Under the pieces are notes generated by a model. The model ran no database searches. It was not told where the DNA came from and saw nothing but the letters and a program-made list of their open reading frames with translations. A DNA stretch of 46,266 nucleotides from a virus (taxonomy: Duplodnaviria > Heunggongvirae > Uroviricota > Caudoviricetes). Position numbers and translations under genes: made by a program. The stretch's first letter is position 1, and each line of letters opens with the position of its first letter. Below, one piece after another: positions 6,524 to 19,322 of this stretch. The stretch lies in the IMG/VR virus record IMGVR_UViG_2671180743_000008. The stretch is one strand, 5' to 3'.

Positions 6524-6769
6524 GTGATGGGCAAAGAATATAAAACTCTCATTAACAAAGCACTTGAGCGTTTTTATTTTCGCTTAAGTGCATCAGGCGC
6601 TCATGCTGAACGTGCGGCCCGTGACTCATTGACCAGAGCAATCCGAAGTCTGTATGACGTGGCTTTTTACGCTGATGATCTGGATGCACTTAACGAACTT
6701 TCCGAGCTGATCTGTGCCGCAGAATGCGGGGAACATATTGAACCGTATAAGCTGGGAAATATCGCATGA
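6524..6769 (+). CDS. Hypothetical early-region protein
   Basis: 81 aa ORF packed tightly after the previous gene. Confidence 0.5.
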   Translation: MMGKEYKTLINKALERFYFRLSASGAHAERAARDSLTRAIRSLYDVAFYADDLDALNELSELICAAECGEHIEPYKLGNIA

Positions 6770-6965: not shown

Positions 6966-7169
6966 ATGGCAATTAAGCATTTTCCTGTCGTTCGTTTCAC
7001 CTCCAGAGGACGTGAATACGAAGTTGACGAACGCCTGATTACCACAATCGACAAACACCGTTCAGAAAAGGATGCACATCATATCTATCTCACTGACGGC
7101 ACTTACTTCTGCGCCACCAACGTGGTGCAGGTGAATCTTATCAGACAGGTACAGGAGTCACGCAGATGA
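6966..7169 (+). CDS. Hypothetical early-region protein
   Basis: Start at MAIKHF, preceded by GGAGG; 67 aa. Confidence 0.5.
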   Translation: MAIKHFPVVRFTSRGREYEVDERLITTIDKHRSEKDAHHIYLTDGTYFCATNVVQVNLIRQVQESRR

Positions 7170-7924: not shown

Positions 7925-10747
7925 ATGACGGCAGAGTACATCAGGGACTGGCAACAACCGCGCCACGCAGTGGGGCGTGAAGGAACGGGGATCCCCGCTC
8001 CTGAATCCGCGCTTTCCTCCTGGCTGGATGCCCACCGGGCAGAGAACGAGCGCCGCCAGGAAATGGCTGATGCGGCGTTCTCCGCCACGCCACTGGGCAA
8101 CCTGATTAATAAAAGCCTGGACGCACAGGAAAAACAGGACAAAACCATCACACTGGCAGGAGACGCCAGAAAACAGGCACGCGGCGCGGTGGATGAAGCC
8201 ATGGCCTCGCTGCGCCTGCTGCCGTCCTATCTGCGCGATCCGCTTATTCGCCACCTCTCCTTCCTGCGCAAAAAACAGGAAGCCGATCGCCGGAAAGGCA
8301 AAAAGAGCTGGCAGGCGGAACGCTATGCACGCGGAACCCTGCGCAAAATATTCGAACGTCTGGATCGCACTGACGGACACTGGCTGACACCGGGTTATCG
8401 CTCCCTTGCCGGACGTGAACGCCTGGACGATTTGCTTTACCTGCCGCAACTCAACAAACACCAGATACAGACGCTGGCCACCATGACGGCGGCGATGTTC
8501 AGCAGCACCTTCGAAAAACTCTGCGATGGTTTTGGCGCGACTGATGGCGAGCTGACCATGGATGTAACGCTGAAGGCGTATCAGATGCTGGCCCGCATGG
8601 CGTTACACTTACACGCCATGCCTCCGCATTATGACGCACTGACAACAGACAAAGACCGGAGGCACGAACCGGACACAGAACTGCTGCCGGGCGCAATCCT
8701 TCGCCTGACCTGTGCGGAATGGTGGAAACGCAAACTGTGGCTGTTACGTTGCGAGTGGAGAGAAGAACAACTTCGCGCCGCCTGTCTGGTTTCCAGAAAA
8801 ACATCGCCCTATCTGAGCCAGGACGCGTTAAGCGAGTTTCGCGCACAGCGCGAGAAAACACGCGATTTCCTGAAAAGTTTCATGCTGGAAAATGAAGACG
8901 GGTTCACGATTGATCTCGAGACGGTGTATTACGCGGGAGTAAGTAACCCGGTTCACCGTAAGGCAGAAATGATGGCCACCATGAAGGGGCTGGAACTTCT
9001 GGCCGAAGCCCGTGGCGACAAAGCGGTGTTTCTGACTGTCACCTGCCCGTCAAAATACCACGCCACAACGGAGAACGGTCATCCGAATCCCAAATGGAAC
9101 GGGGCCACAATGCGCGACTCCAGCGATTACCTGGTTAACACGTTTTTTGCGACGGTCCGCAAAAAACTGAACCGCGACGGCCTGCGCTGGTATGGCATCC
9201 GCACGGCGGAGCCTCACCATGACGGCACCGTGCACTGGCATATGATGGTCTTTGCTCATCCGGAAGAAATCGACACCATTGTGTCCCACACCCGCGATAT
9301 TGCCATTCAGGAAGATCGTCACGAGCTGGGCGATGACATAACTCCGCGCTTTAAGGCGGAGTATGTAGACGGCTCAAAAGGCACGCCAACCAGCTACATC
9401 GCCACCTACATCGGGAAAAACCTGGACAGCCGCGCCGTGGATGGCATCGACCCGAAAACGGGCAAGCCACGCGTTGACCACGAAACCGGAAAATCAATGG
9501 CCGAGAGCGTGGAACGCGCCATCGGCTGGGCGCGCCTTCACCGGGTCCGCCAGTTCCAGTTCTTTGGCATCCCCTCCCGCCAGGTATGGCGTGAACTGCG
9601 CCGCCTTGCCAGCCAGATGGCACGCAACCCGGAAGGCCCGCAACGGCTGAAGGATGACGCAATGGATGCGGTTCTTGCCGCCGCTGATGCCGGATGTTTT
9701 GCCACCTACATAGAGAAACAGGGCGGCGTACTTGTTCCACGCAAAGACTACCTGATTCGCACCGCCTACGACCTCGCCGATGAGCTGAACGATTACGGCG
9801 AACAGAGCGTACAGATTTACGGGATCTGGTCACCACTCATCGGGGAATCCTCCCGTGTGTGCACGCATCCGGATAACTGGAAGCTGGTAAGACGCAAACC
9901 GGAAGCGGAAGACAGCGCCCGCGAAAATGGTTTTGACCTTCAGGGCGGCCCTGCCGCCCCTTGGACTCGTGGCAATAACTGTCCCCGTGTACAGGAAACG
10001 GACAACAACGGGACAGAACAGCCGGAAGAACGGCCAGCACCGTGGCCGCAGCTCCCTGACGGCGTTGATGTGGATGAATGGATGCGCTCACTGAAACGGC
10101 ACGAACGCCGGGCGCTGATGCGTTCGCTTCGTGACAAACAGGCAAAAAACAGCAGTGATGAAATGCAGAGCTGGACACAGAGCCGCAAACAGCAGCGGCC
10201 TTTGCCTGATAACCACGAATTACTCGCTAAAGAATGGCGGGAGTCTGCTGAATCTCTCGGCCTGCATATCGGTGAACAACAGATGCAGCACCTGTTACGG
10301 GGCGGCAGTCTGTACGTTGACGGCAGCATCATTGCACCGCAGGGATTTGAAATTGTACGCAAACCGGATACCCGCCCGGACAGCCGAATCACGCAGCTCT
10401 GGCAGCGCCTGAGCCGTAATCATGGCGTAAGCAGCACGGAGATCCGCCATAACCCGGTCGCCAGCTATCTGACACAGCTGGGGGCATCAGACCCTGAAGC
10501 CGCCGCACGCCTGGCATCCACACTTCAGCAGGACCAGAACACCATGAAAACACCCGTTACCGTGCTTTCTGACATGCTGCGCGCCATCCGCGACGCAGAG
10601 CACGCACAGAGAATCAGTGAAACCACTGAACGCGCCCGCCGCAAAGCAGACCTGCTGCGGGGTGGCCTGACCAGTGGAAACAAAAAACAGACAGAAACGG
10701 GACTCACGAATCCCGTAAATGAGCAAAAAACGCGCAGCGATATATGA
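7925..10747 (+). CDS. A: P2 gpA-type rolling-circle replication initiator (endonuclease)
   Basis: 940 aa; HUH-type motif VHWHMMVF and tyrosine pair YIATYIGKN as in P2 A; longer than the P2 protein as I recall it, with a charged C-terminal tail. Confidence 0.85.
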   Translation: MTAEYIRDWQQPRHAVGREGTGIPAPESALSSWLDAHRAENERRQEMADAAFSATPLGNLINKSLDAQEKQDKTITLAGDARKQARGAVDEAMASLRLLPSYLRDPLIRHLSFLRKKQEADRRKGKKSWQAERYARGTLRKIFERLDRTDGHWLTPGYRSLAGRERLDDLLYLPQLNKHQIQTLATMTAAMFSSTFEKLCDGFGATDGELTMDVTLKAYQMLARMALHLHAMPPHYDALTTDKDRRHEPDTELLPGAILRLTCAEWWKRKLWLLRCEWREEQLRAACLVSRKTSPYLSQDALSEFRAQREKTRDFLKSFMLENEDGFTIDLETVYYAGVSNPVHRKAEMMATMKGLELLAEARGDKAVFLTVTCPSKYHATTENGHPNPKWNGATMRDSSDYLVNTFFATVRKKLNRDGLRWYGIRTAEPHHDGTVHWHMMVFAHPEEIDTIVSHTRDIAIQEDRHELGDDITPRFKAEYVDGSKGTPTSYIATYIGKNLDSRAVDGIDPKTGKPRVDHETGKSMAESVERAIGWARLHRVRQFQFFGIPSRQVWRELRRLASQMARNPEGPQRLKDDAMDAVLAAADAGCFATYIEKQGGVLVPRKDYLIRTAYDLADELNDYGEQSVQIYGIWSPLIGESSRVCTHPDNWKLVRRKPEAEDSARENGFDLQGGPAAPWTRGNNCPRVQETDNNGTEQPEERPAPWPQLPDGVDVDEWMRSLKRHERRALMRSLRDKQAKNSSDEMQSWTQSRKQQRPLPDNHELLAKEWRESAESLGLHIGEQQMQHLLRGGSLYVDGSIIAPQGFEIVRKPDTRPDSRITQLWQRLSRNHGVSSTEIRHNPVASYLTQLGASDPEAAARLASTLQQDQNTMKTPVTVLSDMLRAIRDAEHAQRISETTERARRKADLLRGGLTSGNKKQTETGLTNPVNEQKTRSDI
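10694..10719. repeat. Palindromic element copy 1 (AACGGGAcTcacGAATCCCGTAAA)
   Basis: Imperfect palindrome ACGGGA...TCCCGT inside the 3' end of gene A; a near-identical copy lies 73 bp downstream. Confidence 0.6.
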
Positions 10748-10766
10748 AGCGCGCACAAAACAGGCA

Positions 10767-10793
10767 AAAACGGGATTTCAGAATCCCGTAAAC
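10767..10793. repeat. Palindromic element copy 2, immediately upstream of parM
   Basis: AAAACGGGATTTCAGAATCCCGTAAA between the gene A stop and the parM start; possible operator or centromere-like site. Confidence 0.6.
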
Positions 10794-10823
10794 GATTAAT
10801 TAATCAACATAAGGAAAAGCGAC

Positions 10824-11783
10824 ATGAAAATTTGTATCGACGACGGCTCCACCAACATCAAGCTGGCATGGACTGAGAACGGCGAACGCCGCAACGCCAT
10901 CAGCCCGAACAGCTTCAAGTCGGAATGGTCTGCGCCGTTCGGTGGCATGCAGCCCGCGAACTACATGCTTGATGGCGTGCGCTATGGTTTTGATCCGGTC
11001 AGCGATCGCTTTGTCCAGACAACCGACACGCAATACCAGTACAGCGATGTAAATGTCATTGCCATTCATCACGCGCTGGTCAAATCAGGCATCACGCCAC
11101 AGGAGGTGGATGTGGTTGTCACCCTGCCACTGAGCGAGTATTTCGACACAAACGCACAGCCGGACATGGCCAACATCAACCGCAAAAAAGCGAACGTTAT
11201 GCGCCCGGTGGAGTACCAGAACGGCGAAGCATTCACTATCCGTAACGTGCGGGTTATGCCTGAATCCATTCCGGCTGGCTTTAAGGCACTGGCTGACATG
11301 AGTCCGTTTGAATCCCTGCTGATTGTGGATTTGGGCGGAACCACGCTGGATGTGGCAAAGGTTCAGGGGCAACTGGCAGGTATCAGCCAGGTGTTTTGCG
11401 ATCCACACGTAGGCGTTTCTCTGATGGCCGATGCCGTACTGTCGGTGATGGCCACTAACGGTATGCGCACCAGTCACCACATCGCCAATACCATTATCGA
11501 ACATCGCCATGATGAAGCCTGGCTGCGCCAGCACATCCACAATGACGCGCATTACGCCAGCCTGATGGCGGTTATTCGTGAAAAGGAAGAAACACTGAAA
11601 CAACGCGTGATCCGCGCGCTGGCGGGTTTTTCGGGTTACGGGCGGGTGATGGTTGTCGGTGGAGGGGCGGAGATTGTGGCACCCGCTATCCGCGAAGCCT
11701 GCGGAGTTAATGCGACTTTCATCGCGGACGGGGTGCCACAGTTTGCTCTGGTTAATGGGCTGTACGCAATGGACAAGGAGTAA
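10824..11783 (+). CDS. parM: ParM/StbA-family actin-like partition ATPase
   Basis: 319 aa; N-terminus MKICIDDGSTNIKLAW, internal YSDVNVIAIHHAL, VMPESIPAG, LIVDLGGTTLDVA, GVSL, FSGYGRVMVVGGGAE and C-terminal LVNGLYA all line up with plasmid R1 ParM as I recall it. Confidence 0.85.
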   Translation: MKICIDDGSTNIKLAWTENGERRNAISPNSFKSEWSAPFGGMQPANYMLDGVRYGFDPVSDRFVQTTDTQYQYSDVNVIAIHHALVKSGITPQEVDVVVTLPLSEYFDTNAQPDMANINRKKANVMRPVEYQNGEAFTIRNVRVMPESIPAGFKALADMSPFESLLIVDLGGTTLDVAKVQGQLAGISQVFCDPHVGVSLMADAVLSVMATNGMRTSHHIANTIIEHRHDEAWLRQHIHNDAHYASLMAVIREKEETLKQRVIRALAGFSGYGRVMVVGGGAEIVAPAIREACGVNATFIADGVPQFALVNGLYAMDKE

Positions 11784-11787
11784 ACCA

Positions 11788-12099
11788 ATGACGACACCAA
11801 CCAGACGGATAAGTTTCTATCTGAAGCCTGCGGCCGTCAAGAACGAAAGCGAAGCATGCGCCTGGCTGGGCAGCCTTACACCAGAAGCCCGCAAAAGCGG
11901 CCAACGCGTGGCTTTTCTGGCCGGGCTGGCACTTCTGAAAATGAATCCAGCAGAGGCTTACCGACTGGCTGCATGGGCTGACGATGAGGCGTTATCGGTG
12001 ACACAAACCAGGACAGAACGCCCCGTGCCACAGCCAGTACCAACCGCACAGATAACCAGTCAGATAGCAGGGAATATCCGGGCATTATTTCCTGAATGA
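11788..12099 (+). CDS. parR: ParR/StbB-like partition adaptor
   Basis: Start at MTTPTRRISFYLKP, 5 nt after the parM stop; N-terminal ribbon-helix-helix-like segment and C-terminal LFPE resemble R1 ParR; follows parM as in the parMR operon. Confidence 0.65.
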   Translation: MTTPTRRISFYLKPAAVKNESEACAWLGSLTPEARKSGQRVAFLAGLALLKMNPAEAYRLAAWADDEALSVTQTRTERPVPQPVPTAQITSQIAGNIRALFPE

Positions 12100-12684: not shown

Positions 12685-12920
12685 GTAATTCAGCACGACT
12701 ACAGCTTGGTTTTTCACCGCTATCAAAAACCATCGTATTGGCAAAAATGCGTGACTTAGGAGACGGAACAAAACGCCGCGTAGGAAATGATCGCGGTCGC
12801 GATGTAACCAACGAGGCCGCTCAACTCGTTTGGCATCTAGTCATGGCAGAAGGCGGTGAAATTAATTGGGAGCTGGATGATGGTTCTCGTATGATTTTGA
12901 GGGCCGAGAAGAGTAAATAG
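12681..12920 (+). CDS. Hypothetical protein (hotspot cargo)
   Basis: 79 aa; start overlaps the previous stop by 4 nt, suggesting translational coupling. Confidence 0.5.
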   Translation: MSNSARLQLGFSPLSKTIVLAKMRDLGDGTKRRVGNDRGRDVTNEAAQLVWHLVMAEGGEINWELDDGSRMILRAEKSK

Positions 12921-12934
12921 CTCAAGGGGGATTA

Positions 12935-13120
12935 ATGCTAAATGATGATGAAGAAGAGCTGCTTATGCAGGAATGGTCGCTCGGTGATTATGATAATGGT
13001 GAAAATGGGTGCCCGCATTGTGGCCGTTATCGTTTATGTATCTGCCAGAATGGAAAACACAGATGTGAAAAGTGCAATTGGTCTCCGGAACTTAATGACT
13101 ACGTGCCGATCGAGTGGTAG
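12935..13120 (+). CDS. Small cysteine-rich (zinc-finger-like) protein
   Basis: 61 aa; acidic N-terminus then CPHCGRYRLCICQNGKHRCEKCNW (four Cys pairs). Confidence 0.5.
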   Translation: MLNDDEEELLMQEWSLGDYDNGENGCPHCGRYRLCICQNGKHRCEKCNWSPELNDYVPIEW

Positions 13121-13160
13121 AGGTAAGTCACACTAGGTGTTTTTTAGTTGATTTTATAAA

Positions 13161-13190
13161 TGCACAATAGTGCACAAATTTGCACAATTT
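13161..13190. repeat. Three TGCACAA direct repeats at exact 10-bp spacing
   Basis: TGCACAAtag TGCACAAatt TGCACAAttt, directly after the last early-region ORF in the non-coding gap that should contain cos. Confidence 0.6.
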
Positions 13191-13611
13191 TTTTGAACGA
13201 CTTTTTGCCCTTCCGGCCCGCGTGGCGGCTGGATCCGTCAAGGATCCGTGCATGCACAAAAAAACGCGTTTTTTCTGCGCGCAGGTGACGGGGGAACAGC
13301 CCGCGTTTCAGGGGGTAAATAGCATTCCCTGAACGATGTCGCAGAGATACAACAGAATGGCTGTATTTCTCACGCTGAGCGTGAAAAAGACGTGAGGGCT
13401 TTTGATTTGATGGGGTGAAAGGTAAGGCCGTCAAAATCGCACTGAGACGGCGAGAATATGCAGTCAACGAGGTGGGATTGCGTAAGAGTCTGACTGTCGA
13501 TGATGGCAATCAGCAGGAAAGCGTCGTGAAATTATCTGACTGATACAGGAGCTGGAGAGTCGGGGCATAAATTTTTTATGCCCCGGCGAAGCAGCAGACA
13601 AGCGAAGCGCG

Positions 13612-14658
13612 TCAGGATGTGGGCTGGGTGTCTAACAGTGCGTAAGGGTTAAAGCGGATCACCTCTTCGCCAAGCCAGTCATTGATGTGCTTCATGGCCT
13701 CCATGACGGGCATCAGCTCGTTAATTGCGTAAACCCGCGCGGCCTTCTCCACATCACCAAACGCACTTTTTTCGCCCGGCATCGCCCCCATCAGTTGCGG
13801 CGGAACGCGGTGCGCAGCCAGCACATCATCACGGGATGCCGCCTTAACATTCATGAACTCATCCTTTGCGGTGATCTGCTGGAACGGCAAAATTTGCACC
13901 CCCTCTTTGCCCCCGTTGGGCGCATGAATGAGCACGTTTTTAAACGCACCACCACCACGTGCCCCCTGTAGCGTTTCTTTCAGGGAGTCCATGCTTTCGC
14001 GGTTTACCTGCGCTGCACCGATGTAGATGATGCACCCGGCGTGGGATCCGTTGTCGTAGTACAGTTTTCTGAACATGTCCGCCGAATGAGAAAGGCTGGC
14101 CGAGAGTAATGCGCCAAGATATTCCGGCATGCCGTAGATTTCCTGGTTAATATCCGGATTCATCAGGTGGCACACTTTGCCAGGACGAAACTGAAACGCA
14201 TCCTTGCCATCCTGCACATACCACCATGATTCAAGATCGCTTCCGCGTCGCATGTATTTCGCCAGGGCGTGCCGTAATTTAAGCGGTTCGCCGAGCATAT
14301 TGCTCCGAAGCTCAAGGAATGCGTTACCGAACACAAACCAGTCCAGCGCCAGCGCCGAGAAATCCTGCCGGGAAAGCAGCGGGTGCGGAATATAGCAGCC
14401 GAGCAATACATTGCGCTTAAAGTAAAGCGCAGACTGATGCCAGGACGTTTGCCGGGCAGCTCTTGCCAGACCGTACCAGTCCACCGGGGTTTCATACCAC
14501 CGCCCGTTATCAGCACAGTACATATTGTCCAGCAGGTCATGCCCGGTCAGGCGGTAAGGACCATCAAATGTGAATGCACTGAGCGACGATTCTTTCCTGA
14601 GCGCATCAGCGAGATCAATGCGTGAACTCATGCGCACTTTTTTATTTTTTCTGCTCAT
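13612..14658 (-). CDS. Q: Portal protein
   Basis: 348 aa; size and position match P2 gpQ; transcribed leftward with P. Confidence 0.85.
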   Translation of the reverse strand: MSRKNKKVRMSSRIDLADALRKESSLSAFTFDGPYRLTGHDLLDNMYCADNGRWYETPVDWYGLARAARQTSWHQSALYFKRNVLLGCYIPHPLLSRQDFSALALDWFVFGNAFLELRSNMLGEPLKLRHALAKYMRRGSDLESWWYVQDGKDAFQFRPGKVCHLMNPDINQEIYGMPEYLGALLSASLSHSADMFRKLYYDNGSHAGCIIYIGAAQVNRESMDSLKETLQGARGGGAFKNVLIHAPNGGKEGVQILPFQQITAKDEFMNVKAASRDDVLAAHRVPPQLMGAMPGEKSAFGDVEKAARVYAINELMPVMEAMKHINDWLGEEVIRFNPYALLDTQPTS

Positions 14659-16409
14659 CAGAACTCCATAACCGTGAAACGCTCGTTTTCTCCTTCGCCG
14701 CCAATCGGTTCGTTAATGACAGCAAGCATGGTTGCCCACGCAAGGTCGCCGTGGCTGATCCCCCTCGCGCGGTCCGTTTCGTAAGTGATAAAACCGCCCG
14801 GTGTTTTCACCTTACGCACGGCGTTAAAGGCCGCAACCAGCTCGCGTTCGGCGCGATCGTATTCCCACCGCCCGGCACGCATTATTTGCAGCATTTTCAG
14901 TACCAGCGACCGTTTTGATGACAGCGTGAAGGTGTAAGGGATGGCGGCGGGAAAAAACCGTTTCACTATCTGATAGACGGCATCCCCGTGCCCTCCCGTC
15001 GCATCAATGCCGATGTGTTCCACGTTGTAGCGATACGTGAACTCTTCAATAACTCTGGCCTGCTCTTCAAATTCCAGCCCCTGAACGCGTCGCGTCTCCA
15101 CCGTTCTGAAACGACCACCAGGAACAGCCGGAGGAACCACCACGGACACAGCGCCGCTGTCGCCGTTACCACTGCTGCCGTTTGCGTCATACCCAATCCA
15201 TACCGGACGATTCCCCATCGGGCGGGGGGCAAAGGGTTTCCAGTCTTTCCAGTCGTCGTATCCGTCAACACCGCAGCCAATCAGGATATTCAGGTTAAAT
15301 GCCGATTCCCCTTCGCGGACAAACTCACACATATAGAGATTGCGGAACTCGTCTTCGGTGTTTTCATCACGAATTTCATCAATATCGGTGTGTTTCCAGC
15401 CGTGATTAACCACATCTTCCAGCGTGACAATTTGCCGCCACGTCCGGTCAGGGCAGATAAGCCCGTTATGCAGCGTTTTCCAGTCCACAGAAAAACGCTG
15501 GCGTTTATGCGCGGCCTTTTTCTCGTTCCAGCGGTCGCCGTTCCAGTAGGCGTATGCCTCGTGCGTTTCGGTGGATGGCGTGGAGAAGCAGGTGCGCCGC
15601 AGTCCGCTGAGGGTTGCCATAGCGCCAGCCACCTTGCGCAGTTCAGCAAAGCGACTGACCCAGAAAAATTCATCAAAATAAAAATTGCCCGTGTAAGATT
15701 GCGCCGTCGCAGCAGAAGTGCCGAGAAAATGCATCTCTGCGCCGTTGGAGAGGATGATTTTATCGCCCCCTTTCAGCTCCACATCGACTTCAGCCGCGGC
15801 CTTCTGAATAATGCTTTTAAACTGGAACGCCTGACGACGCGACGCAGACAAAAAAATCTGGTTACGCTGGTAAGGTTGTGCCACATCGTCACGCAGCGCC
15901 ATCAGCAGTGCTTCCTGTGCAAAATACCAGGTCGCCCCAATCTGTCGGGATTTCAGGATCATCCTGTTACGTATCCCGGCTTCCCTGCAAAGCGTCAGGG
16001 AGTCAAACCAGCCCCGCTGATGCCACTCCAGCCTGCTGATGATTTTTTCCCGCAGTGCGGCAATCTGTTCCGGCGTGAAATGATTTTTGAGTTTTTTCGC
16101 CCGGCCTTTCTTTCCTGTGGCCGTCGCATCCGGCTGGCCATCATGCAGTTTTTTAAGCTGCCGGGTCAGCAGGTCTATTTCCTTAAAGTCACCACCTGTT
16201 TTATTCTGTTTTTCAGTAAGCTGGATGAGGCGCGCATCGATGGACTGCGTGACACGCTGCACGGGTGGCGTTTCATCCCACTGGTCGCGTTTTTTCCACG
16301 CATAAATCGTGTTCGGGTTTATTCCCATCAGACGTGATATTTCTGCGGGCGGATAACCCTGCCAGTAAAGTTGCCGCGCACGCTGGCGCACAAAAGCGTC
16401 CTGAATCAT
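14658..16409 (-). CDS. P: Terminase large (ATPase) subunit
   Basis: 583 aa; N-terminal HTH-like region, Walker A-like GKKGRAKK; start overlaps the Q stop; matches P2 gpP position. Confidence 0.85.
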   Translation of the reverse strand: MIQDAFVRQRARQLYWQGYPPAEISRLMGINPNTIYAWKKRDQWDETPPVQRVTQSIDARLIQLTEKQNKTGGDFKEIDLLTRQLKKLHDGQPDATATGKKGRAKKLKNHFTPEQIAALREKIISRLEWHQRGWFDSLTLCREAGIRNRMILKSRQIGATWYFAQEALLMALRDDVAQPYQRNQIFLSASRRQAFQFKSIIQKAAAEVDVELKGGDKIILSNGAEMHFLGTSAATAQSYTGNFYFDEFFWVSRFAELRKVAGAMATLSGLRRTCFSTPSTETHEAYAYWNGDRWNEKKAAHKRQRFSVDWKTLHNGLICPDRTWRQIVTLEDVVNHGWKHTDIDEIRDENTEDEFRNLYMCEFVREGESAFNLNILIGCGVDGYDDWKDWKPFAPRPMGNRPVWIGYDANGSSGNGDSGAVSVVVPPAVPGGRFRTVETRRVQGLEFEEQARVIEEFTYRYNVEHIGIDATGGHGDAVYQIVKRFFPAAIPYTFTLSSKRSLVLKMLQIMRAGRWEYDRAERELVAAFNAVRKVKTPGGFITYETDRARGISHGDLAWATMLAVINEPIGGEGENERFTVMEF

Positions 16410-16563
16410 TGCTCCCCCTGAGTAATTACAGGAAGATTACCCGCGCGCGAAACCGTTCTCCTTAACCCCCTGTTCTGGCCGTTTTCTTACAACAAAAGCC
16501 CTTTGTATCAGCCTGTTACGCTTTGCCATCATGACTGAAGAACCAGTCAGAGGGGCAAAAACT

Positions 16564-17400
16564 ATGGCTAATGAAAAAAAGACATCCCGCAAAAAGTTTC
16601 GCGTGGCTGTCTCCGGATCAACTGTTGATGGCCGTGAAATCAGTCCGGTGCATCTGCGTGAAGCCGCCGAGAACTTCAACCCGGATGTTTACGCTGCCCG
16701 CGTGAACGTTGAGCACTATCTCTCGCCATGCCCGTCAAGCGAATTTTCCGCAATGGGCGATGTCACCGCACTGAGTACGGAAGACATTACGGAAGGTCCG
16801 CTGGCCGGACGTACTGCGCTGTATGCAGAAATCGAACCGACCGAGCGCATGAAGCAGCTTGTCGCGGACGGCAAGAAAATCTATTCCAGTATCGAACTGC
16901 ACCCGCAGTTCTCCGTTAACGGGCGCGCCTATCTGGTCGGGCTGGCGATGACCGACACCCCGGCAAGCCTGGGCACTGAGCGCCTGAAATTCACGGCACA
17001 GCAACGTCAGGCGGTGATGACGTTCAACAGTATCCAGGGTGAAGCACCGCTTATCTCCGAAGCCATCGAGTCTGAAATCATCGAAATGGCAGAACAACGC
17101 CAGGAAGAAGGCACCCAGTGGTTTAACCGCGTAATGGGGATTATTGGTCGTGGCCGCAAAGCGGATGACGCCAGTTTCTCCCGTATTCAGGAAGCGGTGG
17201 AAAGCGTCGCAACGTCACAGGCCGACATTATCGACCGTTTTAATGCGCTGGAAACACGCCATCAGCAGGACAGCCAGAAAATCACTTTACTGACCACGGA
17301 GCTGACAGCACTGAAGGAAAAACTGCGCACGCAGGACGGCGATCCGCAGAACCGGTTCACCGCAACGGGCGCAGCCTCCGACCAGCTGGCTGACTTCTGA
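16564..17400 (+). CDS. O: Capsid scaffolding protein
   Basis: Start at MANEKK; N-terminus KKFRVAVSGSTVDGREISPVHLREAAENFNPDVYAARVNVEH resembles P2 gpO; transcribed divergently from Q-P. Confidence 0.85.
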   Translation: MANEKKTSRKKFRVAVSGSTVDGREISPVHLREAAENFNPDVYAARVNVEHYLSPCPSSEFSAMGDVTALSTEDITEGPLAGRTALYAEIEPTERMKQLVADGKKIYSSIELHPQFSVNGRAYLVGLAMTDTPASLGTERLKFTAQQRQAVMTFNSIQGEAPLISEAIESEIIEMAEQRQEEGTQWFNRVMGIIGRGRKADDASFSRIQEAVESVATSQADIIDRFNALETRHQQDSQKITLLTTELTALKEKLRTQDGDPQNRFTATGAASDQLADF

Positions 17401-17423: not shown

Positions 17424-18476
17424 ATGAATCTGGTGATGTCAGATATTACCCGCAACAAGCTGGGTTGCTATATGGCGCAGCAGGCGTCGCTTAACAATAT
17501 CCCGGTTTCTGCACTGGTATCGCGATTTACCGTGGAACCTGCGGTGCAGCAACGTTTTGAAAACGCCTCAAAGGATAGCACCGAACTTACAAAAAAAATT
17601 AACGTGATCGGCGTGACCGACCAGAAAGGCGAAAAAATCCTCCTGGACACCACAGGACCGATTGCACGCACAAATACCAGTTATGACGGAACAAAACGCC
17701 GTAACCCGAATAACGTGGTTGATCTGAAAAACCGCAAATACCAGTGCGAACAGGTGAACTACGACACGTTTATTTCGTATCCGCAGCTTGATGCCTGGTC
17801 GGCACACAGCGATTTTCAGTCCCGCATCAGCGCACAGATTGCCCGACAGGTGGCACTTGACCGCATCATGATCGGTTTCAACGGCACATCTCACGCGGAT
17901 GAGTCCAACTTCAGCACCAACAAGCTGCTTCAGGACGTTAACGTGGGGTGGCTGGAGCACATCAGAACCAATGCCAGCGAGCGCGTAATGAATGACGTGA
18001 CGCTGACTTCCCGCAACATGGACAACACCGTGGCGCACGCGGGTAAATACGCGAACCCTGATGCACTGGTACAGGACGCGCGCTCATCTCTGCTGGATGA
18101 ATGGCACAAGGAAGCTGACGACCTCGTGGTGATTATGGGGCGCAACCTGTTTAACTCGCTGCGTCTGCCAGTGCTGAACAGCATCAGCGGCCAGAATCCC
18201 AATGCGGAATTACTTGCCGGGCAGCTCATCCTGTCATCGCGCACCATTGGCGGGCTGGGTGTGTTCCTTGCACCGTTCTTCCCGGATGCAACGATGCTGA
18301 TCACCTCATTCAACAACCTGTCGATTTACTGGCAGAAAGGTTCAATGCGTCGTCTGATGAAAGACGAACCGGAATACAACCGCATCGCCACCTACCAGTC
18401 CATCAATGACGCTTATGTCGTTGAAGACTATGGCAAGTGCGCGATGGTCACTGGCCTGAAGTTCGCCGACAGCTAA
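17424..18476 (+). CDS. N: Major capsid protein
   Basis: 350 aa; long colinear similarity to P2 gpN as I recall it (FTVEP, YQCEQVNYDTF, GFNGTS, VGWLE, DLVVIMGR, NLSIYW, YVVEDYG). Confidence 0.9.
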   Translation: MNLVMSDITRNKLGCYMAQQASLNNIPVSALVSRFTVEPAVQQRFENASKDSTELTKKINVIGVTDQKGEKILLDTTGPIARTNTSYDGTKRRNPNNVVDLKNRKYQCEQVNYDTFISYPQLDAWSAHSDFQSRISAQIARQVALDRIMIGFNGTSHADESNFSTNKLLQDVNVGWLEHIRTNASERVMNDVTLTSRNMDNTVAHAGKYANPDALVQDARSSLLDEWHKEADDLVVIMGRNLFNSLRLPVLNSISGQNPNAELLAGQLILSSRTIGGLGVFLAPFFPDATMLITSFNNLSIYWQKGSMRRLMKDEPEYNRIATYQSINDAYVVEDYGKCAMVTGLKFADS

Positions 18477-18521: not shown

Positions 18522-19322
18522 ATGATTACTCCTGCACAGCAACACTGGCAGAACGTGATGGCACAGCGCGCAGGCCGGGCGAATGAAGGTGTGGACCACG
18601 CCGCGCGTACCGCGCATGAAGAGGTGCTGTATCGTCTGCGTCTGGCACAGGCCCGGCTTAAGGGCGTACAGGCCAGAAGCGCGAAAGCCGACATCAAAAA
18701 AGCGTTGTTGCCGGACTTTTCCGGCTGGATTGAGGGAACGCTGGAGGCTGACGGCGGGCAACAGGACGAAGTGATTGCCACGCTGATGGTGTGGGCGATT
18801 GACTGCGGCGATCTTCCGCTTGCGCTGCGTATTGGTGCGTATGCGGTCCGTCACAACCTCATCATGCCGGATAACTTTGGCCGTACTGCTGCCACAGTGC
18901 TGACCGAAGAAATCTGCAATCCGGTACTGACGCAGGCCGGGACGGATGCCGACGCGGATTTGTCCGTCTTTATCGAACCACTGGACACACTTTGGGAAAT
19001 TGTCGCCAACCAGGATATGCCGGACGAAGTGCGCGCCAAATTATGCAAGGCGTGCGCCTTTGCCCGCCGTGGCCTGAGCGATGCGGACAGCATGGCCTCA
19101 TCACTGAAGCTGCTGCGCGAAGCGATGCATCTGAACCAGAACGCAGGTGTGAAACGCGAGATTGCAACCCTTTCCCGCGCCCTGAAAAAAGCCGATTCCG
19201 CAGCCGCACCAGAAGACGCCAGCGCACAGCAGGCGCAGGACGAAAGCAGCGAAAGTAAAAAGACAACGCGGAAGCCTGCAACACGAAAAACCACCGCGAC
19301 GCAGAAGGCGAAGCGCGGTTAA
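18522..19322 (+). CDS. M: Terminase small (endonuclease) subunit
   Basis: 266 aa; position after N and size match P2 gpM. Confidence 0.8.
   Translation: MITPAQQHWQNVMAQRAGRANEGVDHAARTAHEEVLYRLRLAQARLKGVQARSAKADIKKALLPDFSGWIEGTLEADGGQQDEVIATLMVWAIDCGDLPLALRIGAYAVRHNLIMPDNFGRTAATVLTEEICNPVLTQAGTDADADLSVFIEPLDTLWEIVANQDMPDEVRAKLCKACAFARRGLSDADSMASSLKLLREAMHLNQNAGVKREIATLSRALKKADSAAAPEDASAQQAQDESSESKKTTRKPATRKTTATQKAKRG

What the first reader, a model, noticed from the sequence alone, without database searches (positions are those of the whole stretch)
13121..13611. Non-coding gap at the expected cos position with phased TGCACAA repeats
The roughly 490-bp gap between the last early-region ORF and the portal gene Q is where P2-family cos lies. 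It contains three TGCACAA direct repeats at exactly 10-bp spacing (13161, 13171, 13181), so all sit on one face of the helix, typical of a protein-binding array. It also contains a GC-rich stretch (GGCCCGCGTGGCGGCTGGATCC) and a hairpin (GGGGCATAAA...TTTATGCCCC, about 13560..13585) just downstream of the Q stop. I could not confidently match the P2 cohesive-end sequence from memory.
Basis: seen in the sequence. Interest (0 to 1): 0.35.

Follow-up and report, generated by a model that had tools for sequence, protein, structure and literature searches.

The report
Packaging (cos) site of P88-like prophage
The non-coding gap holds the DNA-packaging (cos) site of a very common P2-family prophage, and the three evenly spaced TGCACAA repeats are its outermost conserved part, a layout shared with phages P2, 186 and phiCTX, the satellite P4 and a satellite-like island; this is ordinary biology, though more extended than the usually quoted 55-bp core.

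Summary

The window is a P88-like (Xuanwuvirus, Peduoviridae) prophage, and the gap is its cos region. The homolog of the P2 cohesive end is GGTGACGGGGGAACAGCCC (13284-13302). This follows from a chain of intermediate sequences.

Homology among relatives, and with a satellite-like island that has no portal or terminase gene, begins exactly at the first repeat. In 91 unique relatives the array lies 92 bp from the proximal copy (90/91) and 123 bp from cosN (82/91).

P2, 186, P4 and phiCTX have the same layout with their own motifs (TGCAT; YGCAGRR): distal copies at about -121/-111/-101 and a proximal copy at -29.

The best explanation is a distal terminase-recognition array of a cos site about 165 bp long. 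Neither cleavage nor protein binding has been shown.

I file it as a new member of a known kind, of moderate interest.

The parts
13161..13187 (+). Distal array: three TGCACAA direct repeats in 10-bp phase, at -123, -113 and -103 from the inferred cosN start. It forms the left edge of the conserved cos block.
   Evidence: Coordinates. TGCAC x3 is invariant in 20 diverged representatives whose portals are only about 70% identical. Homology with relatives and with the satellite-like island starts at 13161.
13188..13206 (+). T-rich tract (T7 GAACGAC T5) directly after the array. Together with repeats 2 and 3 it also forms a weak terminator-like hairpin (GTGCA/TGCAC + T7).
   Evidence: The T-run is largely conserved. 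One search found 1 terminator-like site against 0.8 expected by chance.
13207..13252 (+). GC-rich spacer with short dyads (CCGC-GTG-GCGG; two GGATCC). Its sequence varies between lineages but its length is fixed.
   Evidence: array to proximal copy = 92 bp in 90/91. Other lineages carry CCAGnnCTGG here, at about -64 in both P2-type and divergent P88-type sequences.
13253..13264 (+). Proximal copy TGCACAA plus an A-run (TGCACAAAAAAA), at -31..-20. It is the counterpart of TGCATTAAAA at the start of the P2/186/P4 55-bp core.
   Evidence: T, G, C, A and the A-run are invariant columns across window, satellite-like island, L376, L189, P2, 186 and P4. It is invariant in the 20 representatives.
13259..13283 (+). 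Two palindromes, AAAAAACGCGTTTTTT (13259-13274) and TGCGCGCA (13276-13283), abutting cosN. They occupy the position of the GC hairpin CCGCCCCG-N4-GCGGGCGG of P2.
   Evidence: Read from the sequence. GCGCGCA|GG is conserved in all P88-type lineages and resembles the P2 bottom-strand half-site GCGCGCA^GTG (inference).
13284..13302 (+). Inferred cosN: GGTGACGGGGGAACAGCCC, homolog of the 19-nt cohesive end of P2 (GGCGAGGCGGGGAAAGCAC). The nick positions are uncertain by about 2 nt.
   Evidence: Homology chain: P2 to IMG/VR L189/L190/L187/L138 (GGCGAGGCGGGGGAGCAAG), to E. coli L376 (GGTGACGGGGGGAAAGCCC), to the window. phiRSA1 cos begins GGTGAGGCGGGG (PMC5694545). This bin has the lowest polymorphism of the gap. 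Cleavage is not shown.
13303..13325 (+). Right flank of cos (GCGTTTCAGGGGGTAAAT...). Homology with the satellite-like island ends at about +37 to +43.
   Evidence: alignments end at query 171-177, which is L375 7160-7166.
13561..13585 (.). Perfect 11-bp inverted repeat, 26 nt downstream of the portal stop. It is a possible 3'-end structure of the P-Q transcript and not part of the shared cos block.
   Evidence: minimum free energy of the 71-nt stretch 13541-13611 containing the hairpin: -24 kcal/mol on the minus-strand RNA, with no U-tract after the stem. Conserved in E. coli and Citrobacter relatives, absent in phiT5282H. P2 and 186 annotate terminators tQ/tW at the equivalent place.
13612..14658 (-). 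Portal gene (P2 Q homolog), transcribed toward cos.
   Evidence: PF04860. A portal lies 380-1080 bp downstream of the array in every related locus with enough sequence, except L091.
14658..16409 (-). Large terminase (P2 gpP homolog) with an N-terminal helix-turn-helix. It is one of the two candidate readers of the repeats.
   Evidence: PF03237, PF17289 and PF06056 (residues 6-63), plus HTH_23.
18522..19322 (+). Small terminase (P2 gpM homolog), the most likely reader of the repeats.
   Evidence: PF05944, E = 1.3e-36. 36% identity to P2 gpM. No solved relative in the PDB.

Best explanation
The gap contains the cohesive-end (cos) packaging site of a P88-like, P2-family prophage. The functional site is about 165 bp long (13161 to about 13325) and has a fixed layout:
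1. Three TGCACAA repeats on one face of the helix.
2. A T-rich tract.
3. A GC-rich spacer of fixed length.
4. A fourth, proximal TGCACAA with an A-run.
5. Two short palindromes.
6. The 19-nt cleavage region GGTGACGGGGGAACAGCCC (13284-13302).
7. About 20 bp of right flank.

**Proposed mechanism (inferred).** The phage terminase reads the four TGCACAA sites; the small subunit gpM is the most likely reader, possibly helped by the N-terminal helix-turn-helix of gpP. The three phased distal sites load a multimer cooperatively. The fixed 72/82/92-bp distance to the proximal site lets the bent or looped DNA position the large subunit. The large subunit then makes staggered nicks, leaving 19-nt 5' ends.

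**Shown:** sequence, phasing, conservation, fixed spacing, homology to known cos sites, and sharing with a satellite-like island.

**Inferred:** the nick positions, which protein binds, and that the distal array is needed for packaging.
For: 1. **Context.** The repeats lie next to a portal gene transcribed toward them, followed by gpP; gpO, gpN and gpM are on the other strand. The region is 92-97% identical to P88-like phages.
2. **cosN homology chain.** P2 GGCGAGGCGGGGAAAGCAC|TGCGCGC, to L189-type GCGCGCA|GGCGAGGCGGGGGAGCAAG|CGCGCGC, to L376 GCGCGCA|GGTGACGGGGGGAAAGCCC, to the window GCGCGCA|GGTGACGGGGGAACAGCCC.
3. **Conservation.** In 20 representatives whose portals fall to about 70% identity, TGCAC x3, the proximal TGCAC plus A-run, and GCGCGCAGG are invariant while the spacer is scrambled.
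4. **Spacing.** Array to proximal copy is 92 bp in 90/91 unique sequences. Array to cosN is 123 bp in 82/91.
5. **Left border.** Homology begins exactly at 13161 in phages and in the spread sample of listed rows from 1148 of 5426 complete E. coli genomes, where alignments start at query position 1-8 and most often at 7, which is 13161.
6. **Satellite test.** A satellite-like island in E. coli carries primase, integrase, Ogr/Delta and its own capsid gene, with no portal or terminase gene in the 14 kb examined. It shares only -123..+42 with these phages, including all four repeats at the same spacing.
7. **Same layout in characterised cos sites.**
   - P2 has TGCAT at -123/-111/-101/-29. 186 and P4 have it at -124, -111, -101, -35 and -29.
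   - In 64 non-redundant P2-type contexts, TGCA[T/A] lies within 1 nt of -111 in 55, of -101 in 55 and of -121 in 34. Background is 0.64 per window.
   - phiCTX has TGCAGGG at -110, CGCAGGG at -100 and TGCAGAAAAAG at -29, and its record annotates repeats R4-R6 across cos.
8. **Experiment in the literature.** Cosmids with longer cos flanks than the 55-bp core transduce 10^3 to 5x10^4 times better (PMC9594776).
Against: - No physical end of virion DNA was available. The one linear record that starts inside the region (LR595891, equivalent to 13206) had its nt 1 chosen 'relative to reference genomes', so it says nothing about the ends.
- The cosN homolog matches P2 at only 13 of 19 positions. An ungapped register measured from the proximal motif would put the nicks 2 nt to the left.
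- No binding data exist for gpM or gpP. The literature reached here speaks only of a 55-bp core, and I could not read Ziermann and Calendar 1990 to see whether the distal repeats were tested.
- The side of cosN that carries the repeats is the genome's right end. By recalled literature this end is packaged last in P2, unlike lambda cosB.
- In P2 itself the distal repeats overlap the old-gene promoter region, so a transcriptional role there is not excluded.
Confidence: 0.7

Rival explanations
1. The array is a transcription terminator or insulator. Repeats 2 and 3 form a GUGCA/UGCAC stem followed by U7, which would end rightward transcription from the accessory genes before it runs through cos.
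For: The scan reports this as the only terminator-like site in 12900-13750. It lies directly after the last + strand ORF.
Against: - The stem has only 5 bp, and 0.8 such sites are expected by chance.
- In many relatives, strong terminator-like GC hairpins followed by T-runs (read by eye from the sequences, not scanned) sit immediately upstream of the array, so the cargo modules appear to bring their own terminators.
- Three copies plus a fourth 72 bp away are conserved, where two would suffice for a hairpin.
- The array is kept in the satellite-like island and in P4, 186 and phiCTX behind unrelated upstream genes.
- P2-type arrays lack the T-run.
Confidence: 0.1
2. The repeats are operator or iteron sites for a regulator or partition protein, for example the parC centromere of the phage's ParM/ParR-like system or an operator of an accessory-gene promoter. 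On this view they are unrelated to packaging.
For: Phased direct repeats are typical of ParR centromeres and of repressor arrays. The window encodes ParM (10824-11783) and a partition protein (11653-12099) about 1 kb upstream. In P2 the equivalent repeats lie 26-54 bp upstream of the old transcript starts.
Against: - The array is present at the same distance from cosN in phiT5282H, in the satellite-like island, and in P2, 186, P4 and phiCTX, none of which shows a parM next to it.
- A separate pair of 42-nt repeats with hairpins sits directly upstream of parM (10681-10795) and is the better parC candidate.
- No sigma-70-like promoter was found in 12900-13750.
- The upstream accessory genes differ between relatives while the array does not.
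Confidence: 0.07
3. The distal array is bound by a host architectural protein, or acts only as intrinsically structured DNA that bends cos. Terminase itself would recognise only the proximal core and cosN.
For: The spacing is fixed while the spacer sequence varies, and adjacent T-tracts suggest that geometry matters. Lambda cosB needs IHF (general knowledge).
Against: - The motif changes with phage lineage (TGCAT, TGCACAA, YGCAGRR) among phages that share hosts (E. coli P2 versus P88). This is what is expected of a phage-encoded reader, not a host protein.
- The same word is used at the distal and proximal sites in each lineage.
Confidence: 0.1

Closest known systems
cos sites of P2, 186 and satellite P4 (19-nt 5' cohesive ends; '55-bp core', Ziermann and Calendar 1990 as cited in PMC9594776 and PMC5694545)
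   Same: - Position next to the portal gene.
- A G-rich 19-nt cosN homolog flanked by GCGCGC-type half-sites.
- A proximal TGCA..TGCAYWAAAA block ending at -20.
- Three distal TGCAY copies 72, 82 and 92 bp upstream of the proximal one.
- Shared with a satellite or satellite-like island that has no terminase gene nearby.

   Different: - The repeat word is TGCACAA, not TGCAT.
- cosN differs at 6 of 19 positions.
- There are 2 extra bp between the proximal motif and cosN.
- The P2 GC hairpin is replaced by the A6CGCGT6 and TGCGCGCA palindromes.
- The central CCAGnnCTGG dyad is degenerate.
- There are about 310 bp rather than about 165 bp between cosN and the portal stop.
- The ends have not been determined experimentally.
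phiCTX (Pseudomonas, Citexvirus) cos region, with annotated repeats R4-R6 spanning the 21-nt cohesive end
   Same: Repeats of a lineage-specific word (YGCAGRR) at -110, -100 and -29 from the GGCG of cosN. GTGCAGAAAAAGAGG aligns with GTGCACAAAAAGAGG of divergent P88-type sequences. GCGCGC lies after cosN.
   Different: Different word, and a distal-to-proximal spacing of 81/71 rather than 82/72. What the phiCTX authors concluded about R4-R6 could not be read here.
Lambda cosB (gpNu1 R-sites plus the IHF site) next to cosN
   Same: Works in the same general way: several copies of a short word beside the nicking site are read by the small terminase subunit, and DNA bending brings the large subunit to cosN. 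This is an analogy from general knowledge.
   Different: There is no sequence or protein homology: gpM is PF05944 and not Nu1-like. The repeats are direct and strictly 10-bp phased. They lie on the right-end side of cosN. No IHF consensus was identified.

Membership tests
P2-family (Peduoviridae) cos site | Lies between the accessory or right-end region and the portal gene, with the portal and large-terminase genes transcribed toward it | tested here: met
   Portal 13612-14658 (-) and gpP 14658-16409 (-); gpA 7925-10747 (+) lies upstream.
P2-family (Peduoviridae) cos site | A 19-nt G-rich cosN related to GGCGAGGCGGGGAAAGCAC with GC-rich flanking half-sites | tested here: met
   GGTGACGGGGGAACAGCCC at 13284-13302, 13/19 identical to P2. 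It is linked through intermediates L189 and L376 and preceded by GCGCGCA. The register is uncertain by 2 nt.
P2-family (Peduoviridae) cos site | Conserved proximal core on the right-end side (TGCAACTGCATTAAAACC...) | tested here: met
   TGCATGCACAAAAAAA at -35..-20 aligns without gaps to TGCAACTGCATTAAAA (10/16). TGCA and the A-run are invariant columns in alignment A2. The GC hairpin of the P2 core is not conserved.
P2-family (Peduoviridae) cos site | Terminase cleaves here to give 5' protruding cohesive ends in virion DNA | not testable with these tools
   No read-level or end-sequencing data were available. The start of LR595891 was chosen by its authors.
P2-family (Peduoviridae) cos site | The same site is carried by satellites that depend on the helper's terminase | tested here: met
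   Island L375 (primase, integrase, Ogr/Delta, capsid protein; no portal or terminase gene in the 14 kb examined) shares only -123..+42 with the window. About 56 E. coli records carry this version. That it is a satellite is inferred from gene content.
Lambda-type cosB | R-sites bound by a gpNu1-type winged-helix small subunit, with an IHF site, on the end packaged first | tested here: not met
   The small subunit is PF05944 (gpM type). The repeats lie on the right-end side. Binding was not tested. This is a resemblance in logic only.
ParMR parC centromere | Iterons directly upstream of parM that co-occur with parMR | tested here: not met
   The array is about 1.4 kb downstream of parM. It occurs in phiT5282H, L375, P2, 186, P4 and phiCTX without an adjacent parM. 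Other repeats sit upstream of parM at 10681-10795.
Intrinsic (rho-independent) terminator | GC-rich stem-loop followed by a U-tract at the end of a transcription unit | tested here: inconclusive
   For 13170-13185 plus T7: a 5-bp stem with 3 GC pairs, at a frequency expected by chance. For 13561-13585: a strong stem but no U-tract on either strand.

The most novel reading that the evidence does not exclude
The helically phased triple of a lineage-specific TGCA-word, 72/82/92 bp upstream of a proximal copy, may be an essential and so far under-described distal half of every P2-family cos site. That would extend the functional site from the quoted 55 bp to about 150-165 bp. The word (TGCAT, TGCACAA or YGCAGRR) together with cosN would then set which helper can package which satellite. 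This would define separate packaging-compatibility groups: P2/186 with P4-like satellites, and P88-like phages with the capsid-gene-bearing island found here.
Probability: 0.4. Interest if true: 0.5.

Novelty: new member of a known kind. Interest (0 to 1): 0.35.

Why it matters
- **Prevalence.** P88-like prophages sit in about one in five complete E. coli genomes, yet I found no description of their cos site.
- **Annotation.** Placing cosN at 13284-13302 and delimiting the site (13161 to about 13325) lets these prophages be oriented and annotated correctly. Several records call spurious genes across cos.
- **Accessory-gene hotspot.** The array marks the exact right border of the variable accessory-gene region next to cos.
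- **Cosmid and satellite design.** The analysis gives a testable minimal packaging signal for P88-based cosmids or satellites.
- **The P2/P4 core.** The cross-family comparison suggests that the '55-bp core' used to design P2/P4 cosmids omits a conserved distal element. This may explain the reported 10^3 to 10^4-fold gain from longer flanks (PMC9594776).

Tried and rejected
- **Start of LR595891.** I took the start of the linear record LR595891 (equivalent to 13206) as a possible physical end. Rejected: sibling P2-like records of the same project do start at the known P2 cos, but the paper says nt 1 was chosen relative to reference genomes after terminal repeats were removed.
It matches P2 and 186 at only about 10-11 of 19 positions by eye. 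It lies in the least conserved part of the block and is scrambled in other lineages.
- **IMG/VR contig ends as virion ends.** There is no consistent end at cos, and the provirus trimming is arbitrary.
- **Known RNA families.** Only sub-threshold chance hits were found.
- **Small ORFs in the gap.** These include the ORFs annotated in P88 and Chuche. They show no codon periodicity and no PHROG match, and one spans cosN.
- **parC and promoter readings.** Rejected as set out under rival explanations.
- **Literature.** I could not obtain Ziermann and Calendar 1990 or the Christie and Calendar P2 review. Whether the distal repeats were already described for P2/P4 therefore remains open. The supplement of PMC9594776 holds no cos sequences.
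- **Pattern scan of species-representative genomes.** The phased pattern mostly returned unrelated 10-bp TGCACRA arrays in other phyla.

Full report
**Observation.** TGCACAA starts at 13161, 13171 and 13181 on the + strand. The phased triple is unique in the window even with three mismatches allowed, and it never appears in 100 shuffles. The heptamer alone is not over-represented: 15 copies against 12 expected. The GC-rich stretch is at 13215-13236. The hairpin is a perfect 11-bp inverted repeat at 13561-13585, 26 nt beyond the stop of the portal gene (13612-14658, minus strand; PF04860).

**What the window is.** The gap is 92-97% identical to the same interval of P88-like phages (Xuanwuvirus and Gemsvirus, Peduoviridae). 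Around it lie gpA (7925-10747), ParM and a partition protein, a few small accessory ORFs, then the gap. After the gap come the portal and large terminase on the minus strand and, on the plus strand, the open reading frames at the positions of P2 scaffold gene O (16531-17400) and capsid gene N (17424-18476), then the small terminase gpM. The core of the gap occurs in 1148 of 5426 complete E. coli genomes.

**Where conservation starts.** In an alignment with six relatives, homology begins exactly at the first TGCACAA; everything to the left is unrelated cargo. The E. coli hits listed, a spread sample of the 1149 matching records, begin at query position 1-8, most often 7, which is 13161. The more distant Enterobacter phage phiT5282H keeps only the block from the array to about 13305. 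The array is therefore the left edge of a conserved non-coding module.

**Locating the cohesive-end sequence.**
- The ends of P2, 186 and P4 read ...TGCAAC TGCATTAAAACC GCCCCGnAAAGCGGGCG | GGCGAGGCGGGGAAAGCAC | YGCGCGC.
- A pattern scan of IMG/VR recovered more than 100 loci with the array. In every locus with enough sequence a portal homolog lies 380-1080 bp downstream; the one exception is noted under side observations.
- The most divergent of these (L189, L190, L187, L138; portals about 70% identical) read ...GTGCACAAAAAGAGGC..TTTAGCGCGCA | GGCGAGGCGGGGGAGCAAG | CGCGCGC, an unmistakable P2-type cosN.
- An E. coli prophage (L376) has GCGCGCA | GGTGACGGGGGGAAAGCCC.
- The window has GCGCGCA | GGTGACGGGGGAACAGCCC at 13284-13302.
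- phiRSA1, another P2-like phage with determined ends, begins GGTGAGGCGGGG (PMC5694545).
- This block, together with the array, is the most conserved part of the gap.

I therefore place cosN at 13284-13302. This rests on homology, not on measured ends. An ungapped register counted from the proximal motif would shift it 2 nt to the left.

**Geometry.**
- Among 91 unique P88-type sequences, the array starts 92 bp before the proximal TGCAC in 90. It starts 123 bp before the first G of cosN in 82, and 121-124 bp before it in the rest.
- In 20 representatives, TGCAC x3, the T-run, the proximal TGCAC plus A-run and GCGCGCAGG are invariant. The 46-bp spacer changes sequence almost completely without changing length.
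- This pattern points to selection on positioned sites rather than on a transcript or a peptide.
- The ORFs in the gap show no codon periodicity (38/36/32) and no family match.
- No Rfam family reaches threshold.

**The same layout in characterised cos sites.**
- Counted from cosN, P2 has TGCAT at -123, -111, -101 and -29. 186 and P4 have it at -124, -111, -101, -35 and -29. The window has TGCACAA at -123, -113, -103 and -31, with TGCA at -35 (corrected by 2 nt).
- In 64 non-redundant P2-type upstream contexts from IMG/VR, TGCA[T/A] lies within 1 nt of -111 in 55, of -101 in 55 and of -121 in 34. Background is 0.64 per 3-nt window.
- The P2-type consensus is GTGCATnnTTTTGCATG, against GTGCACAAATTTGCACA in the window.
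- The distances from distal to proximal copies (72, 82 and 92 bp) are identical in the two lineages.
- A central dyad, CCAGnnCTGG, sits at about -64 in part of both lineages and is degenerate in the window.
- Pseudomonas phage phiCTX has TGCAGGG at -110, CGCAGGG at -100 and TGCAGAAAAAG at -29. Its GenBank record annotates repeats R4-R6 across cos.
- BLAST sees only the 55-bp core (-29..+26) between P2-type elements, and that core is what the literature quotes (PMC9594776, PMC5694545, PMC9122126).

**Satellite test.** One E. coli hit of lower identity (L375) lies in a satellite-like island next to hpt. The island carries a helix-turn-helix regulator, an Icd-like protein, a Toprim primase-like protein, an integrase, an Ogr/Delta zinc finger, a P2-family capsid protein (35% identical to the window's N homolog) and MazEF. 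No portal, terminase or tail gene is annotated in the 14 kb examined.
- The island's similarity to P88-like phages is confined to 7001-7166, which is -123 to about +42.
- All four TGCACAA copies are present at the same spacing, and cosN reads GGTGACGGGGGAACAGCAC.
- About 56 E. coli records carry this version.
- If the island is packaged by a helper's terminase, it needs to keep only what that terminase reads, and it keeps the array. P4 makes the same point for the TGCAT version.

**Mechanism.** The most economical reading is a cos site of about 165 bp whose distal array and proximal copy are read by the terminase.
- The window encodes a gpM-type small subunit (PF05944; 36% identical to P2 gpM) and a gpP-type large subunit with an N-terminal helix-turn-helix (PF06056).
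- The repeat word changes with phage lineage while the layout stays. Within each lineage the same word is used distally and proximally. Both points argue for a phage-encoded reader rather than a host protein.
- Three sites at exactly one helical turn would present one face to a multimer. The fixed distance to the proximal site suggests a bend or loop that sets the nuclease on cosN.
- The only experimental hint I could read is that P2/P4 cosmids with longer cos flanks transduce 10^3 to 5x10^4 times better than short ones (PMC9594776).

**Rivals.**
- *Terminator.* A terminator-like hairpin (GTGCA/TGCAC + T7) exists but is weak and at chance frequency. In many relatives, terminator-like GC hairpins with T-runs (read by eye, not scanned) lie just upstream of the array.
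- *parC centromere.* This is excluded by the array's presence in elements without parM, and by separate repeats directly upstream of parM (10681-10795).
- *Promoter or operator.* No promoter-like site is found.
- *Host architectural protein.* This is hard to square with the lineage-specific words.

**The hairpin.** The hairpin at 13561-13585 lies outside the block shared with the satellite-like island. It has a strong stem but no U-tract on either strand. It occupies the place of the annotated tQ and tW terminators of P2 and 186. It is probably a 3'-end structure of the P-Q message; this was not examined further.

**Novelty and verdict.** This is the cos site of a known phage family in a lineage where it has not, as far as I could find, been described. 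Its repeat word and cohesive-end sequence differ from those of P2, but its architecture is the same. I file it as a new member of a known kind. The cross-family regularity of the distal repeats may be under-described. I could not read the 1990 P2/P4 paper or the phiCTX paper, so I do not claim it is new.

Noticed in passing
L375 (E. coli mip270_05, NZ_CM132658.1 about 4413219-4424000); cos at L375:7001-7166: An island next to hpt/can of at least about 11 kb (its left end was not determined) that looks like a satellite. It carries an HTH regulator, an Icd-like protein, a Toprim primase-like protein (889 aa), an integrase, an Ogr/Delta zinc finger, a 236-aa unknown protein, its own P2-family capsid protein (423 aa, 35% identical to the window's gpN, with an extra N-terminal part of about 120 aa) and MazEF. 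No portal, terminase or tail gene is annotated in the 14 kb examined. It shares only the cos block with P88-like phages. About 56 E. coli records carry this cos version.
   Followed up: partly
Loci L015-L134 (genome-contig scan), e.g. L020, L032, L055, L059, L060, L064: Arrays of three or more TGCAC(A/G)A words at exact 10-bp spacing occur in many unrelated phyla (Bryobacteraceae, Phycisphaerales, Tepidisphaeraceae, Bacteroidia, Caldilineaceae and others). They often sit just upstream of a gene start and recur several times within one genome. No link to phage cos sites is apparent.
   Followed up: no
window 10681-10722 and 10754-10795: Two 42-nt direct repeats (81% identical), each with an ACGGGA...TCCCGT hairpin. 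They straddle the end of gene A and the 76-bp gap before parM (10824). They are a candidate parC centromere or promoter of the phage's ParM partition system.
   Followed up: no
L144:11392-11955 (also L149, L153, L176, L181, L228, L235, L240, L245, L250): In a subset of relatives the distance from the array to the portal stop is about 1077 bp instead of 454 bp. The extra DNA holds a 187-aa ORF on the + strand between cos and the portal gene, which would be a second cargo slot on the left-end side of cos.
   Followed up: partly
window 14658-16409 (-), residues 6-63 of the product: The large terminase has an N-terminal homeodomain-like helix-turn-helix (PF06056, 'gpP-like').
   Followed up: no
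window 13363-13391: An imperfect inverted repeat (GTATTTCTCACGCT / AGCGTGAAAAAGAC; 14-nt arms, 86% complementary) lies in the roughly 310-bp non-coding stretch between cosN and the portal stop. That stretch is conserved in E. coli and Citrobacter relatives but absent in phiT5282H, and its role is unknown.
   Followed up: no
L091 (Candidatus Erwinia dacicola, NZ_MAYS01000134.1), array at oriented position 6570: A complete P88-type cos block (array, proximal copy and GGTGACGGGGGAACAGCCC) with no portal homolog in the 1.4 kb downstream. This is either a degraded prophage or another satellite.
   Followed up: no
P88 KP063541.1 10994-11137; Chuche PP925824.1 19473-19957; L375 6902-7174: Several public records annotate 'hypothetical protein' genes that run across the array or across cosN. 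These are very likely annotation artefacts.
   Followed up: partly
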